From Carcharhinus amblyrhynchos (lineage: Eukaryota), in NCBI GenBank assembly GCA_965287045.1, contig OZ336875.1, forward strand, positions 74,772,001 through 74,836,000: a stretch of 64,000 nucleotides of DNA, read 5' to 3'. Position numbers: made by a program. This document shows positions 18,001 through 24,000 of the stretch, piece after piece (position 1 is the first letter of the stretch; each line of letters starts with the position of its first letter).

Positions 18001-21000
18001 TATGGATAAGTGCATTAAGCTGGATCACCTCACTGCAATAACTAGCTTGGCTGTGTTGGATCCCTCCCAATTCTTGCAAATCTGATTTTCATCTTCACTG
18101 TCTTTTATATGAAGTCAGTTTATACCCTTTGGCAGGAAAAGGATGGCCTTCTGAAGTGTGGTATTATTGGTGCCCTTCTGGATTGAGTAAATGGCAGAGA
18201 AATGCCTTCTATGCCCTGAACTTTAGAAGACTTGAGTCGCACAAAAATGACAGCTCCAATTAGGGAGTATTTTGTGTTGATAAAGAGCCATGCTGTTGAA
18301 GTATTTTGCCTGTACTCAGTAGGACAGTTTGCAAGATTGCCAACAGTAAAAGGAACAAATCATTTTGTGTAGAGTGCTAGTTGTTTGGCAGGTGGATGCT
18401 GGCAGAGGTGTTGCCATGGAGAATGCAGCATTAACTACTAAGCTTTGTCAAATTCAGACCAATCAGGTTGACTCTGGTCTGTGCATTGTCATGAAGAATG
18501 AACCAGGGAATGGTTGTTCCCTATAGTTAAAGGCACAAATTGTGGACATCCTTTCCTGTTTACCAAGGACAGGCTGTGTGAATGACTTCTAGCATGCCAA
18601 ATGAGCCATACCGATTGACTAATTTTTTAGTGTAATTCCAAGCAGTCAGGATTGTTAACAAATGTTATTCAATCACATCTTTTTTTTTGACACTTGTTTC
18701 AAGTTTTTTATAGGCACAGGCTAGTTGGGTATAGGCTGTTCTTCCTGTTGTAAACAGCTGAAAGGACATGCAGTTTGATCTGATCCACCAGTCGTTGGGA
18801 TGTACGTACCACGTTCCTGGCATCAGACTAAAACTGAATTATAGACCACCTTACTTGTGTGATAGAATGTCTTTCTGGCTTGACGGCAGCATCTCATTAC
18901 TGGAGGATACAACTCGTGTTGCTACTGTATGGGACAATTAACTTCACCTGTTACGTTTTTGAGATACCTTGCCCTTCCACCGTATTCTTGATGTCAACTG
19001 GGCACTTTCCAAGTCTGAAAGTGGCAGCCTTAGGACAATTAATGCATGCAAAACAGTGATCTGATCATGGTGGCCATTATCCTGTGGGATGGTTTTGTGC
19101 TCCCTCGTTCAGCATCAAGCTTGTCTGGAGAGCAAACGGCTCAGGTCCTATTTATGAAGTTGCTATTGAGGCCAATCTTGTAACATGTGGAACTGCAGGA
19201 ATCCCAACATGTATATTAACTGGTGAAGGGAAGCTTGTGGTATAGAGTACTAAAGAGCGCTAGCAGAGTTTTCAGCAGATGCATTGAGGAAATGGTGCTC
19301 CTGCTTTTCAGTGGTTAAATTTGAGTGCAGGGTGGAGCCCTTTAAGGCACAGCATGCAGCTGCAAATCCAAATGTAGCAAGCCATTGGAAAATTGCAAAG
19401 GATAGGAGGTTAGCCACCATTCAATTGGAGATGCATTCTCCATGGCAACATCTCTAGCCTGTCAATCAACAGTCTCCCCTCATGCAGTCTAAATTGTTAC
19501 CTTTACTGTTGGTAATCTTGTGATTTGTTCCTGAGTGTGCAAGATGAAGCTTGAACTGCATTTCTTTCCAGAAAGGTTCATGCTACTGGACTACCTGTGA
19601 CTGGGAGGTTTCATGCTCAGATTCTATGCTTGGTTATGCTCAGTAAGAAGTCTCAACATCAGCTTAAAGTCCAGCAGGTTTATTTGGTAGCACAAGCCCC
19701 TAGCTTTTGAAGCACTGCCCCTTCATCAGGTAGTGGGAGTTCCATCCACAAACAGGGCATATAAGACAAACTCAAAATAATGGGTGGGATGCATGTCTTT
19801 ACAGGTAATCAAGTCTTAAAGGTACAGACAATGTGAGTGGAGAGAGGCTTAAACACAACTTAGAAGTGTTGTTTGCAGCCAGGAGATTTTGCAAGTTGCA
19901 GGGGTTACAGATAATGTAACATGAACTCAGGATCCCAGTTGAGGCCATCGTTGTTTGCAGAACTTGGCTATTCTCTGCTCAGCAACTCTGAGTTGTCATG
20001 TGTCGTGAAGGCTGCTTTGGAGAACTGTTTCCCAAAGATCAGAGGCTGAATGCCCATGACTGCTAAACTGTTCCCCCAACAGGAAGAATACACTCTTGCC
20101 TGGTGATTGAGCAGTGTTCATTCATCCATGGTCAGTGTCTGCATGTATCCCCAATCTACCATGCCTCAGGACATCCTTTTCCTGCAGTGTATCAGTAGAC
20201 AGCATTGGTCGAGTTGCAAGTGTATGTACTGTGTACCTGGTGGATAGTGTTTTCGCATAAGATGATGGCATCTGTCGATGATCTGTACTACTTGCAGAGG
20301 TTGCTGTGGCAGGGTTGTGTGGTGTCGTGGTCACTTCTCCTGAAGGCAGGATAGTTTGCTGTGGACAATGGTCTGTTTTGAGGTTGTGCGGTTGTTTTGA
20401 AGGCAAGAAGTGGGGGTGGCCTTGGCATGATGTTTGTCATCAATGACATGTTAAAGTCCAGCAAAGACGTCATAGCTTCTCCGCTCTGGGGAAGTACTGG
20501 ACGACGAAGGGTATTCTGTTTGCTGTATCCTGTGTTTGTCATAGGTCAGTGTGATTTTTCACTGGCGTGTCAGAACTGTCGATTTGCCATATCCTGCTCT
20601 TGAGGGCATCTTCTAGCATCTGGAGGCGTCTCTTGTGATCATCTGAGTAGATCCTAAGGCTTGTCCATAGGGGATGGCTTCTTTAACGTGTTTAGGTTGG
20701 AAGCTGGAGAAGTGGAACATGAGGATGTTATCCATGGGCTTGTGATATGGGGGGGTGCTGAGGTGACTGTCCTTGATGGAGATATGTGACCAAGAATGCA
20801 ACCGATTCTGGAGAATAGTCCATGGTAGTCTGGGATGGAACTTGTCATCATATAGTTGTTTGTGATTTGTTCACTGAGTCCAAAGGAAGAAAATGTCATT
20901 GTATCTAGTGTGTAGCATATGTTGAAGGTCCTATGTGGTGAAGAGGTCTTGTTCAAACCTATGCATGAACATGTTAGTATATTGAGATGCAAATTTGTTG

Positions 21001-24000
21001 CCTATGGCTACTCTGTCTGGATGCAAACACAACAGGCCATCCCATCGTATCAGGCAATGGGACCCTGTGCAAAAGCCTCTCCGGCTATGTCAAGGACATA
21101 AACCTATTGTACAAGAACCTCCAGCTTTTGTTGCAACACTACAGACTTCCTACAGAAGCTCAGCACGCATGGAGCAGTTGAACCAGGAGCACTCAACGAT
21201 ACAATGGATGTCTCAACATTACATCAGCATCACCCACAAAGATGGCAGTTTCAAGACATCCATTGTCACTAAAGCTGGGGGTTCTTTGACAACGTCAAGG
21301 GCATTCTGTATTGTACAGAGGTTCTCGCACAGGGTCTCATTGCCCAAATGATGGGATGGCTGGGTGTGTTTGCATTCAGACACGAACAGCCATGGGGACC
21401 AAATTCACAGTTCCAATATGCCAGCATCTTTCGTAAGTTTGAACAAGATCTCTTCAACACATAGGACCTTCAACCAATGCTATACATTAGATACATCAAT
21501 GACATTTTCTTCTTTGTTGTCATATGTTGACCACTGAAACAACTATGACAACAAGTTCCACCCCACTATCAGACTCACCATGGACTACTCTATGGAATGC
21601 ATTCTTGGACACATCTCCATCAAGGACTGTCACCTCAGCACTTCACTGTGTCGCAAGCCCACGGATAACCTCACGATGCTCCATTTCTCCAGCTTCCCTA
21701 AACCTCTTTTAAAGAAGCCATCCCCTACAGATAAGCCCTCCTTTATACACAGGACCTGCTCAGATGAGGAGGATCACAACAGACACCTCCAGATGCTGAA
21801 AGATGCCCTGATAAGAACAGGATATGGCAGTTGACAGTTCCAATACGCCACAGTGAAAAACCACACTGACCTCAAGACAAACATGGGGCACAGCAAACAG
21901 AATACCCTTTGTCCAAAACTTCCCTGGAGTGGAGAAGTTACAACATCATCTTCAGAGCCTTCAACATTGATGCAGACAGACATCACGCAAGGCCATCCCT
22001 GCACCCCCACTTGCCTTCAAACAACCACACAACCTCAGGCCATTGTCTACAACAAACCACCCAGCCTTCAGGAGAACAGTGATCAAGACACCACACAACC
22101 CTGCCACAGCAGCTTCTGCAAGATTATCAACACCGATGCCATCTCATGAGAAAACCATCCACCAGGTACACAGTACATACACTTGCAACTCAGCCAACGC
22201 AGTCTACTTGATGCGCTACAGGAAAGGATGTCCAGAGGCATGGTACACTGGGGAGACCATGCAGATGCTACGGCAACAGATGAATGAACACCATTCAACA
22301 ATCGCCAGGCAAGAGTGTTTTCCTGTTGGAACACTTCAGCAGTCACAGATATTTGGTCTCTGATCTTTGGGTAAGCATTCTCCAAGGTGACCTTCACCAC
22401 ATGACAACACAGTCGCTGAGCACCAATTTGATAGCCAAGTTCTGCACAAATGAGGATGGCCTCAACCAGGATCTTGGGTTCATGTCACACTATCTGTAAC
22501 CCCCATGACTTGCCTGGACTTGCAAAATCTCTAACTGTCCTGACTGGAGACACTACACATCTCTTTAACCTGTGCTTAACCCTCTCTCCTCACATTGGCT
22601 GTACCTTTTTAAGACTTTACCTGTAAAGACTTGCATTCCATTATTTTGTAAATAGTTTGTCTTTATATGCCCTGTTTGTGAATTGAAATCCCACTCACCT
22701 GATGAAGGACGAGCACTCCAAAAGCTAGTGGTTTGTGCTATCAAATAAACCTGTTGGACTTTAACCTAGTGTTGTGAGACTTCTTACTGTGTTTACCCCA
22801 GTCCAACACTGGTATCTGCACATTATGGTTATGCTCAAGCAGACTTGGATTGTTCAGTTTCTGTAGTATCAGTATCATTGGCAAGACCATGTATTGCTCA
22901 TCCCTAATTCACCTTGAAGATGATGGTCTTGAACTGCATTAGTAAAGGTGTAGGTAAATCCTTGTTGCTGATGGAAAAGCATTTTTGATTCGACAAGTGA
23001 TGTAATTAAAAATCAGAATGATGTTGCAGGGAGACTTGGTCCCAAGCACTTTAACCATTCCTCTTCTAGATGGTGGAGGGTATGGGTTTGGAAGGTCCTG
23101 TCTGAGGAGCCTTGGTGAATTGCTGCAGTGCATCTTACAGATGGTGTATGCTGCAGTTACTGTCTCCACCTCCAACATAGTAACTGTTCAAGGTGATGGA
23201 TGTGGTGTTGATCAAGTGTGCTGCTTTGTTCTGGATAATGAGTTTGTTTCTGGATGATTGCAGCTCCAAATAGAATACTATCATCCTTGTCTTGTTAATG
23301 GTGGACAGGCTTTGAAAAGTTAGGTGGTGATAACCTCTGAAAAGTCCCAGCCACTGCACCTGTTCAGTTGCTCATCAGTGGTGAATGCCAAGATGTTGGT
23401 GGGAAATTGAGATGGTAAAGCATTTGAATTAGATTCTCATTCAAGATGGCCATTATCTGGTGCTTTATACAGTGTGACTGTTAATTCACTGGGAGCCTTG
23501 CAACTTTAGTTGCATAGGTATTGAACTTTTACTCAGGTGGTCCTGAAGATGGATCAGTCTTCCTTGCTTGGCTGAATTGCACTGCAAACCCAATCAGCGG
23601 CTGGTTACAGCAGTGGGATTCTATTGGACAGAGATGTGTGAACAGGAGGAACCTCTTTTGGCAGCCTTGACACTTGGTCCTGGTACCTGCCAATGTGATA
23701 GCATTCTCAGTGGCAGGAATTGGCCTCTTAGGGCCTCAGTTGACCCATGGATGAGCAGCTCACCCATTCCTCACCACTACCGATGAACACAATTCCTGGT
23801 GGTGAGTAGGCAATGACTGTAATGCCATGGCTCCAAATTTAATGCTTCTAAATGCCCTCAAGGGCATAAATTTCCAGCCTTGAATCCCTGTTGCAGGGTT
23901 GTTCAACTGTCATCCCTTGCATTGCATTGGGATACAGTAGCAGTTCAAGTTCTGAATCTGACCTCACCATTTTAAAATGTCTTGTGCTGTGAATCCTAGA

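What the first reader, a model, noticed from the sequence alone, without database searches (positions are those of the whole stretch)
19631..22837. 3.2-kb palindromic Penelope-like insertion bounded by one target-site duplication
Seen: 19641-21245 is the diverged reverse complement of 21246-22789, with both 3' ends pointing outward. The same 12-mer tggttatgctca lies at both outer edges (19631-19642 and 22826-22837; the last 2 nt overlap the element on the left). The right arm carries a 36-nt tail (22790-22825) that the left arm lacks. Established: Penelope-like elements can integrate with an inverted terminal-repeat copy and a short extra tail on one end. Inference: this is a single integration event that copied ~1.6 kb twice in opposite directions, much longer than a terminal repeat, rather than two independent insertions. 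It sits in a CAPRIN2 intron, so the pre-mRNA could form a long imperfect hairpin.
Basis: partly seen in the sequence, partly recalled or inferred. Interest (0 to 1): 0.75.

Follow-up and report, generated by a model that had tools for sequence, protein, structure and literature searches.

The report
Head-to-head Penelope-like retrotransposon insertion
A dead Penelope-like retrotransposon sits inside the caprin-2 gene as two decayed mirror-image copies bounded by one 12-base target duplication; this is the ordinary way such elements insert, with one unusual extra: a flipped piece at the centre.

Summary
Window 19641-22789 is a diverged palindrome: 83.8% identity over 1441 aligned columns, with many indels. 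An exact 12-mer flanks it at 19631-19642 and 22826-22837. A 36-nt tail (22790-22825) is present on the right only.

By motif reading and by architecture it is an endonuclease-bearing Penelope-like element (PLE). No profile search confirmed this.

One target duplication, an inverted 5'-truncated copy and a 30-40-bp tail at one end are described hallmarks of PLE insertions. A 2024 in vitro study shows a PLE protein cutting and extending both target strands, with two reverse-transcription start sites a tail-length apart. A single integration event is therefore the best reading, and it is ordinary.

The inner 240 nt (left) and 129 nt (right) run opposite to the outer arms, and both arms carry the same breakpoint. 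The layout is therefore a nested palindrome. I favour a template RNA that was already rearranged; this is inferred, not shown.

The element lies between caprin exons on the + strand. As RNA it is predicted to fold into a long imperfect hairpin. The family consensus, copy counts and the orthologous empty site could not be checked.

The parts
19631..19642 (+). Left copy of the target-site duplication TGGTTATGCTCA. The last 2 nt are shared with the element.
   Evidence: Exact direct repeat D17. Only two occurrences in the window, and 13 of 20000 random boundary pairs did as well. The last 14 nt of the left flank match the reverse complement of the start of the tail at 9 of 14; 1.2% of window 14-mers ending in CA do as well.
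19641..21013 (-). Left outer arm. It is an antisense copy running from RT motif B through motif C (Y-I/N-D-D), the thumb region, a Cys-rich linker, a GIY-YIG-like block and about 330 nt of untranslated 3' region. It lacks the last 36 nt of the element.
   Evidence: Aligned to 21383-22789 at 84.7% of 1309 columns. The - strand frames read AIGNKF..., RYNDIFF, KFHP..., FSSFQPKHVKEAIPYGQAL. Strand skew (A+C)-(G+T) is -0.152. The motif names are my reading; no profile hit.
19701..19729 (-). Minimal-hammerhead-like core in the left arm.
   Evidence: One of the 2 window matches to the relaxed descriptor. The position expected to be G12 is A.
21014..21253 (+). Left inner segment. It covers RT motifs 1/2 to A (GHPIVSGNGTLC ... 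TMDVS) and reads sense on the + strand, which is opposite to the left outer arm. Its last 40 nt (21214-21253) are the unpaired centre.
   Evidence: + strand ORFs 20978-21181 and 21102-21272. Skew +0.198 against -0.152 for the adjoining arm. Alignment with the reverse complement of 21254-21382.
21254..21382 (-). Right inner segment. It is the same RT motif 1/2-A region, sense on the - strand, with a 68-nt deletion relative to the left inner segment.
   Evidence: - strand ORF 21219-21404 reads ...LGNETLCENL...VTMDV. Alignment A1 shows 68 gap columns. Skew -0.124. Inverted pairs I14 and I16.
21383..22789 (+). Right outer arm. It is a sense copy from RT motif B (AMGTKF, about 21389-21406) through motif C (about 21479-21511), the thumb region, a Cys-rich linker, a GIY-YIG-like block (about 22178-22292) and the 3' untranslated region.
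   Evidence: ORFs. Skew +0.158. The Atlas placed the 98-aa ORF 21538-21834 near eukaryotic clusters carrying PF26215 at score 0.96 (a lead only).
22699..22727 (+). Minimal-hammerhead-like core in the right arm: CUGAUGA, one extra nucleotide, a short helix II, AAAA where GAAA is expected, then GC, then UA.
   Evidence: Pattern search found 2 matches in the window, both at this homologous site; 0.54 expected by chance, and 12 of 100 shuffles had 2 or more. Rfam gave no hammerhead at E up to 1. The fold is not better than shuffles.
22790..22825 (+). 36-nt tail. It is the distal end of the element's 3' terminus, present on the right arm only.
   Evidence: It is shared with the solo fragment at 11163-11212. 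It folds into a small stem-loop, -10.7 kcal/mol, z -1.61; 16 of 200 shuffles fold as well, and the fold is not kept in the solo copy.
22826..22837 (+). Right copy of the target-site duplication. The first T could equally be the last base of the element.

Best explanation
This is one old, dead insertion of an endonuclease-bearing Penelope-like retrotransposon.

Proposed mechanism:
- The element's GIY-YIG nuclease cut both target strands 11-12 bp apart.
- Both 3'-OH ends were then used to prime reverse transcription of element RNA. The two cDNAs grew towards each other with the element's 3' ends facing outward.
- The right-hand cDNA started at the distal start site and so carries the 36-nt tail.
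- The left-hand cDNA started 36 nt further in, on a 2-nt match that extends to 9 of 14 nt of partial complementarity.
- Joining of the two cDNA ends and fill-in left one target duplication around the whole unit.

Each arm is a chimera: a flipped RT motif 1/2-A piece joined to the stretch from RT motif B to the 3' end. I think the RNA that was copied was already rearranged. The most likely source is a transcript that ran across the head-to-head junction of an earlier inverted PLE insertion. Both cDNAs then ran to about the same 5' end.

Since insertion the two arms have decayed independently, to about 16% mismatch plus many indels.

What is shown: the sequence anatomy, the duplication, the tail, the shared breakpoint and the gene context.
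What is inferred: the order of events, priming on both strands at this locus, and the chimeric template. The confidence given is for the single Penelope-like integration event. Among readings of the centre I give the chimeric template about 0.4.
For: Anatomy.

One duplication for the whole unit, and no third copy of the 12-mer at the centre.

Both arms carry the same breakpoint between the flipped piece and motif B, with no indel across it in the arm alignment. The strand skew flips sign four times, -0.152 / +0.198 / -0.124 / +0.158.

The tail is the family's true 3' end, because a solo 51-nt fragment shares it and then diverges.

Literature:
- Craig et al. 2021 (passages). [quoted passage not shown]
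- Arkhipova et al. 2013 (passages, Discussion). The Pen2a_Av insert has an inverted pLTR 37 bp shorter than the full ones, a 31-bp tail and a 9-bp duplication around the entire insert. Palindromes at inverted junctions are taken there as signs of self-priming.
- Frangieh et al. 2024 (Main text read in full). [quoted passage not shown] Reverse transcription starts at two adjacent internal sites, and the tail corresponds to the sequence between them.

A hammerhead-like core lies 62 and 98 nt upstream of the two inferred start sites. PLEs are reported in all vertebrate genomes surveyed, including elephant shark and whale shark: passages.
Against: No profile or structure search recognises a reverse transcriptase or a GIY-YIG domain:
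- Pfam: 0 of 10 ORF pieces (the only row was PRAS_NT at E 0.17), 0 of 2 read-throughs, and 0 of 6 full sense frames of the arms.
- PDB: nothing relevant in 3 searches.
- The Atlas gave no usable hit for the inner segment.
- AlphaFold2 gave pLDDT 45.7.

Rfam finds no hammerhead. The core I point to lacks G12 in both arms, and I relaxed the descriptor after seeing the sequence.

The target is not AT-rich and shows no ATT at the cut sites, unlike the anole element.

There is no direct pLTR or tandem partial copy.

A perfect 12/12 duplication is on the lucky side at the arms' level of decay. My arithmetic from the rates: 0.847^12 = 0.14, or about 0.07 with indels counted.

The inner segments look more diverged than the outer ones, 76.2% of 126 columns against 84.7% of 1309, though that alignment is short and gapped.

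The chimeric-template idea has no direct support. No second copy with the same breakpoint is in the window.
Confidence: 0.75

Rival explanations
1. A single event from an ordinary colinear RNA. The central flipped pieces arose during integration by self-priming or fold-back of a broken upstream RNA or cDNA fragment, with end-to-end template jumps onto the two arm cDNAs. This rivals only the chimeric-template part of the best explanation, not the single-event reading.
For: The centre is a tail-to-tail fold-back with a 40-nt unpaired loop carried by one copy only. That geometry is what Arkhipova et al. 2013 predict for self-priming on a sense template. The PLE protein extends both strands and is predicted to be a dimer, so two polymerases would work side by side.
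Against: It needs at least three template changes. Both arm cDNAs must stop at the same nucleotide, and two independent joins must produce identical breakpoints. A simple snap-back of one whole arm cannot make the tail, because the arm that carries the loop (the left one) lacks it.
Confidence: 0.3
2. A single 5'-inverted PLE copy inserted first. A later DNA-level fold-back or inverted duplication produced the second arm.
For: It would explain why both arms share the same internal breakpoint.
Against: An inverted duplication would carry the flank and the duplication in inverted orientation. Instead a direct copy of the 12-mer abuts each outer end. The left arm stops 36 nt short of the element's end exactly at the target sequence. 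The flanks share nothing else.
Confidence: 0.06
3. Two independent insertions of the same family, in opposite orientation, at the same spot.
For: The arms differ by about 16%, and I cannot show that they were identical at the start. PLEs are reported to insert into one another.
Against: The second insertion would have had to land exactly between the first element and its duplication, and to make no duplication of its own; the 12-mer occurs only twice. Both arms have the same rearranged structure and nearly the same inner end.
Confidence: 0.04
4. Assembly or sequencing artefact (a chimeric palindromic read).
For: PLE inverted structures are known to trouble assemblies.
Against: Artefactual palindromes have near-identical arms. 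These differ at 233 of 1441 aligned sites and by dozens of indels, one of them 68 nt long.
Confidence: 0.01

Closest known systems
Canonical endonuclease-bearing Penelope-like element insertions with an inverted 5'-truncated copy and a one-sided tail (Craig et al. 2021, passages; Pen2a_Av in Arkhipova et al. 2013, passages)
   Same: Head-to-head inverted copies with the 3' ends outward. One short target duplication around the entire unit (9 bp in Pen2a_Av, 11-12 bp here). A 30-40-bp tail at one end only (31 bp there, 36 bp here), with the inverted copy shorter by about that length (37 bp there). Heavy 5' truncation.
   Different: There is no full-length copy and no direct pLTR. Both copies are truncated to nearly the same point, so the unit is almost a pure palindrome. 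The centre holds a flipped 240/129-nt piece of upstream RT sequence, whereas the junction palindromes mentioned in that paper are 18 and 38 bp.
PAc, the Poseidon PLE of Anolis carolinensis, studied in vitro (Frangieh et al. 2024; Main text read)
   Same: Cleavage and extension of both target strands, and two reverse-transcription start sites a tail-length apart. Together these predict exactly a tail-bearing arm and a tail-less arm facing outward. A hammerhead motif lies somewhat upstream of the start sites.
   Different: This locus is a genomic fossil in another host, and nothing was tested biochemically. The target here is not AT-rich. [quoted passage not shown]
Twin priming of human L1, which gives 5'-inverted insertions (recalled from my own knowledge; no L1 paper was opened, only listings)
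   Same: The second target strand also primes on the element RNA. An upstream segment ends up inverted next to the 3' segment, with the two 5' ends abutting, as within each arm here.
   Different: L1 uses an AP-type nuclease and a poly(A) tail. It gives one inverted segment, not two mirror-image arms. The second priming is internal to the RNA body, not at a dedicated start site near the 3' end.
Intronic inverted repeat pairs that form double-stranded RNA, such as inverted Alu pairs in human genes (recalled; not checked here)
   Same: Two inverted copies of a retroelement inside one intron, predicted to pair over about 1.25 kb.
   Different: Here a single insertion supplies both arms. Pairing is imperfect, with longest uninterrupted helices of 35 bp counting G-U pairs. 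No expression or editing data were available.

Membership tests
Endonuclease-bearing Penelope-like elements (PLE) | PLE/telomerase-like reverse transcriptase domain | tested here: inconclusive
   By eye, the sense frames of both arms show the RT motif order B (AMGTKF / AIGNKF), C (RYINDIFF / RYNDIFF) and then KFHP...; the inner segments show motifs 2 and A. Pfam gave 0 of 10, 0 of 2 and 0 of 6. PDB gave nothing. The Atlas placed the 98-aa ORF near clusters with PF26215 at 0.96, which is a lead only. The motif names are from my own knowledge.
Endonuclease-bearing Penelope-like elements (PLE) | C-terminal GIY-YIG endonuclease in the same reading frame direction | tested here: inconclusive
   A block reading ...NAVYLMRYRKGCPEAWYTGETMQMLRQQMNEH lies downstream of the RT in the right arm, and its counterpart lies in the left arm. 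I read it as GIY...YIG...R...E. There is no Pfam hit and no relevant PDB hit.
Endonuclease-bearing Penelope-like elements (PLE) | Inverted 5'-truncated copy adjacent to the insertion (head-to-head) | tested here: met
Endonuclease-bearing Penelope-like elements (PLE) | 30-40-bp tail present at one end only | tested here: met
   36 nt at 22790-22825, absent on the left. It is part of the family's 3' end.
Endonuclease-bearing Penelope-like elements (PLE) | Short target-site duplication around the entire unit | tested here: met
   11-12 bp, exact; 13 of 20000 random controls did as well.
Endonuclease-bearing Penelope-like elements (PLE) | Hammerhead ribozyme motif in the terminal repeat region | tested here: inconclusive
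   Rfam found none at E up to 1. A relaxed minimal descriptor hits both arms at the homologous site and nowhere else in the window, with 0.54 expected. It shows the extra nucleotide after A9, a G-C closing pair of helix II and a palindromic GC before UA, as described in Cervera and De la Pena 2014 (passages). G12 is A in both arms.
Endonuclease-bearing Penelope-like elements (PLE) | Direct pseudo-LTRs from partial tandem copies | tested here: not met
   No direct repeat of element sequence appears in or next to the unit. The literature treats direct or inverted arrangement as alternatives, so this does not exclude membership.
Endonuclease-bearing Penelope-like elements (PLE) | Placement of the RT in the PLE clade by phylogeny | not testable with these tools
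L1-type twin-priming product | Poly(A) tail at the 3' end and an AP-endonuclease type target (TT/AAAA) | tested here: not met
   The outer ends carry no A-run, and the target is GCTCA/AGCAG.

The most novel reading that the evidence does not exclude
The flipped RT piece, joined at the same nucleotide in both arms, would be a genomic record of the unresolved second half of Penelope integration. One possibility is that an RNA transcribed across a head-to-head junction, partly antisense, was used as a template. That would give the first natural evidence for the antisense or read-through templates proposed by Arkhipova and colleagues. The other possibility is that the two reverse transcriptases of a dimer swapped templates in a symmetrical way. 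On either reading, long nested palindromes of this kind would be a recurrent, countable class in shark genomes rather than a one-off.
Probability: 0.2. Interest if true: 0.45.

Novelty: new member of a known kind. Interest (0 to 1): 0.2.

Why it matters
The finding mainly serves as an annotation and as a caution. A 3.2-kb palindrome with one target duplication is what Penelope-like elements are already known to leave behind. It is not a new integration mode.

It has modest value as a natural counterpart to the 2024 in vitro result. Both target strands appear to have been extended, one from each of two start sites 36 nt apart. The flipped centre is a concrete object for asking what template is copied and how the two cDNAs are joined.

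For the host gene, the insertion places about 1.25 kb of potential imperfect double-stranded RNA inside a caprin-2 intron. That could attract RNA editing or affect splicing, but no data here speak to either.

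Tried and rejected
Profile and structure recognition of the element's protein all failed:
- Pfam on 10 ORF pieces, on 2 read-throughs with stops as X and on all 3 sense frames of each arm.
- PDB sequence search on 3 pieces.
- AlphaFold2 on the 98-aa ORF with its left-arm counterpart gave pLDDT 45.7, so no fold search was run.
- The Atlas gave a lead for the 98-aa ORF and nothing usable for the inner segment.

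Rfam on 19000-23500 at E up to 1 gave 0 matches.

I looked for a second copy in the window to serve as a reference for the normal order of segments. tblastn used 68 ORF pieces and a sensitive blastn was run, both against the window with the element masked. Only the 51-nt 3' fragment at 11163-11212 was found.

A decayed tail on the left arm was rejected. A larger duplication of the flanks was rejected: only weak old-repeat matches elsewhere in the window.

Folding of the hammerhead-like region and of the tail gave energies no better, or only slightly better, than shuffles.

I considered and rejected a simple snap-back of one whole arm. The arm that carries the central loop lacks the tail, so it cannot have templated the other arm.

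I considered a central inversion of a plain palindrome. Inverting a symmetric centre changes nothing, so it cannot give this layout.

Pfam on the three + frames of 9801-19600 found no further caprin exon. The region 22838-48678 was not scanned.

Full report
OBSERVATION

The window has no N. Region 19641-22789 is a diverged palindrome. There are 55 inverted pairs, and 24 of the 25 shown lie on one anti-diagonal. A self-blastn gave one minus-strand match, 19629-22801. The gapped arm alignment has 1208 matches and 233 mismatches over 1441 columns, which is 83.8%.

TGGTTATGCTCA lies at 19631-19642 and 22826-22837 and nowhere else in the window. Of 20000 random position pairs, 13 shared a word that long at their boundaries. 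The right arm runs 36 nt further (22790-22825) than the left. The left flank is not a decayed copy of that tail: 7 of 24 matches beyond the last 14 nt. The arms are much too different for an assembly artefact.

WHAT THE ARMS ARE

Read in the sense direction, each outer arm shows a consistent series:
- AMGTKF / AIGNKF
- RYINDIFF / RYNDIFF
- KFHP...
- FSSF.PKH.K.AIPYGQAL
- CSDEED
- a Cys-rich stretch
- ...NAVYL...GCPEAWY(T/I)GET...MNEH
- about 330 nt without a frame

From my own knowledge these are RT motifs B and C, the thumb region, a zinc-finger-like linker and a GIY-YIG nuclease, which is the domain order of canonical Penelope-like elements.

No tool confirmed this reading. Pfam found nothing in 10 pieces, 2 read-throughs and 6 whole frames. 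PDB found nothing relevant. Rfam found nothing. An AlphaFold2 model was useless at pLDDT 45.7. The Atlas gave only a lead: clusters of eukaryotic proteins carrying PF26215, score 0.96. Both copies are riddled with stops and frameshifts. The longest sense-strand stop-free stretch is 130 aa.

A hammerhead-like core lies at the same place in both arms, 22699-22727 (+) and 19701-19729 (-). It reads CUGAUGA, one extra base, a short helix II, AAAA, GC, UA. These are the only two matches in the window to a relaxed descriptor, with 0.54 expected by chance. The two matches are one observation, not two. I loosened the descriptor at G12 after seeing the sequence, and G12 is A in both arms. That could be decay of a CpG, but this is inference. 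The layout fits the minimal PLE hammerheads of Cervera and De la Pena 2014 (passages).

THE TAIL AND THE 12-MER

A separate 51-nt fragment at 11163-11212 (- strand) matches 22776-22826 at 86.3%. It then continues into unrelated sequence. Two things follow. The 36-nt tail belongs to the family's 3' end. And the 12-mer is not part of the element, though this rests on one comparison only.

The first T of the right 12-mer may be element sequence, so the duplication is 11 or 12 bp. The last 14 nt of the left flank match the reverse complement of the first 14 nt of the tail at 9 of 14. Among window 14-mers ending in CA, 1.2% do as well. This is a modest hint that the left target end annealed to the RNA there before extension.

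The arms are not colinear copies. On the + strand the order is:
- 19641-21013: antisense, motif B to the 3' end
- 21014-21253: SENSE, GHPIVSGNGTLC ... TMDVS, which is RT motifs 2 and A and lies upstream of motif B in any reverse transcriptase
- 21254-21382: antisense copy of that same piece, with a 68-nt deletion
- 21383-22825: sense, motif B to the 3' end

Three lines of evidence support this. First, the ORFs on opposite strands. Second, the alignment of the two inner pieces. Third, the strand skew (A+C)-(G+T), which flips as -0.152, +0.198, -0.124, +0.158.

The roughly 40 residues that should lie between motif A and motif B are absent from both arms. The breakpoint is the same in both arms, with no indel across it. 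It can be placed only within 21014-21031 and its mirror 21365-21382, because 9 nt there could belong to either side.

The centre is a 40-nt stretch, 21214-21253, that continues the left inner piece and has no partner. The unit is therefore a nested palindrome: outer arms with 3' ends outward, and inner pieces with 3' ends inward.

HOW IT MOST LIKELY AROSE

The literature covers the outer structure.
- Craig et al. 2021 (passages): PLE insertions are heavily 5'-truncated. They often have an inverted 5'-truncated copy adjacent, and a 30- to 40-bp tail often at only one end.
- Arkhipova et al. 2013 (passages, Discussion): an insert with an inverted repeat 37 bp shorter than the full ones, a 31-bp tail, and a 9-bp duplication around the entire unit.
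- Frangieh et al. 2024 (Main text read in full): a purified Poseidon PLE protein cleaves and extends both target strands, unlike R2 and L1. It starts reverse transcription at two adjacent internal sites, and the tail is the sequence between them.

Applied here, the two nicks lie 11-12 bp apart and both 3' ends primed. The right cDNA started at the distal site and carries the tail. The left cDNA started at the proximal site. That is one event and an ordinary one.

Each rival fails on a specific point:
- Two independent insertions would need a second hit exactly at the boundary, without its own duplication, by a copy with the same rearrangement.
- A later inverted duplication would have inverted the flank and the 12-mer.

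THE CENTRE

The centre is the only unusual part. I favour (about 0.4) a template RNA that was already chimeric. For example, a transcript could start inside the longer copy of an earlier head-to-head insertion, run antisense to its 5' end, cross the junction and continue in sense through the inverted copy to a proper 3' end. Both cDNAs would then copy the same breakpoint and stop near the same RNA 5' end, as observed.

The alternative (about 0.3) is self-priming or template jumping during this one insertion. Arkhipova et al. note that self-priming on a sense template gives a tail-to-tail arrangement, which is what the inner pieces show.

A plain snap-back of one arm is excluded, because the arm that owns the central loop lacks the tail. 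None of this can be settled without other copies of the family.

IN PRINT

In my searches I found no description of an inner flipped segment of this size in a PLE insertion:
- 35 papers, 15 listed
- 2 papers
- 3 papers
- 3 papers

Arkhipova et al. 2013 do mention 18- and 38-bp palindromes at junctions, and copies with permuted inverted halves.

AGE

The outer arms differ by K2P 0.174, with 135 transitions (18 in CpG context), 65 transversions and about 57 indel events. CpG observed/expected is 0.20-0.31.

If the arms were identical at insertion, each has accumulated roughly 9% substitutions. Cartilaginous fishes are reported to evolve slowly (passages), so the insertion would be old. I give no date.

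An intact 12/12 duplication at that level of decay has a probability of roughly 0.07-0.14 by my arithmetic. That is a mild tension, not a contradiction.

CONTEXT

I do not take the contig for human. It carries a Penelope-like element and other non-mammalian-looking repeats.

The gene model was examined exon by exon only.
- ORF 48679-49407 (+) holds a C1q domain (Pfam E 8e-34). Its best PDB match is Caprin-2 chain 4oul_A at E 1.1e-81, 277.8 bits, against about 88 bits for cerebellin-1 alone.
- ORF 9271-9549 (+) matches the first 19 positions of Pfam Caprin-1_C at residues 29-47, nt 9355-9411. The match is E 2.6e-4 at 21.7 bits, below the 25-bit cut-off (also seen).
- A further likely exon starts at 10329, behind a pyrimidine tract and AG. 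This is my reading by eye; Pfam did not flag it.

The element therefore lies between caprin exons on the + strand, consistent with a caprin-2 intron. The nearest flanking exons were not mapped: 22838-48678 was not scanned.

Folded as RNA, 19641-22825 gives -1920.9 kcal/mol against -903.9 and -897.8 for two shuffles. Of its 1306 pairs, 1245 join the two arms, and the longest uninterrupted helices are 35 bp, counting G-U pairs. This is a prediction only.

UNCHECKED

No eukaryotic genome collection was available. The following therefore remain open:
- the family consensus
- the age of each arm
- genome-wide counts of such palindromes
- other copies of the breakpoint
- the orthologous empty site

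Paper supplements were closed.

VERDICT

The main inference, one integration event of a Penelope-like element, is well supported by architecture and by published biochemistry. The phenomenon is already described for this class. The nested flipped centre is a small new wrinkle worth a genome-wide count.

Noticed in passing
window 11163-11212 (- strand): A solo 51-nt fragment of the same family's 3' end, including the tail (86.3% to 22776-22826). It looks like an extremely 5'-truncated insertion. No clear target duplication was seen by eye.
   Followed up: partly
window 48679-49407 (+): Last coding exon of a caprin-2 gene. C1q domain, Pfam E 8e-34; best PDB match Caprin-2 4oul_A at E 1.1e-81.
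   Followed up: yes
window 9355-9411 (+) and 10329-10421 (+): Two likely consecutive caprin exons. The first matches the start of Pfam Caprin-1_C, below the cut-off, and appears to end at a GC rather than a GT donor. The second begins after a pyrimidine tract and AG. They were not joined.
   Followed up: partly
window 7433-7816 (+): A 128-aa open frame with about five repeats of a K-K-W-x-x-E-Y-V-like unit. The only Pfam row was DUF4245 at E 0.0023, below its cut-off. It may be a caprin-2 exon or chance; unexplained.
   Followed up: partly
window 22788-22822 (+): In the right arm the tail folds into a small stem-loop with an A/C-rich loop, closed by a second stem that brackets almost the whole tail (-10.7 kcal/mol; 16 of 200 shuffles fold as well). 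The fold is not kept in the solo copy. It is reminiscent of the AC-rich stem-loop at the start sites of the anole element.
   Followed up: partly
window 19629-19642 against 22788-22801: The target end on the left is 9 of 14 complementary to the RNA at the start of the tail. This is possible primer-template annealing, whereas the in vitro study reports no homology at initiation.
   Followed up: partly
window 19550-19562 and 22928-22940: An exact 13-mer CTTGAACTGCATT lies in both flanks, at a spacing different from that of the duplication (D13). The flanks also have weak matches to old repeats at 18290-18427 and 33408-33512. The element probably landed in older repeat debris.
   Followed up: partly
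window 59781-60182 (-), 44446-44751 (-), 56829-56993 (-): Open frames that look to me like fragments of LINE-type reverse transcriptase tails. Pfam gave 0 of 3 hits at E up to 0.01.
   Followed up: partly
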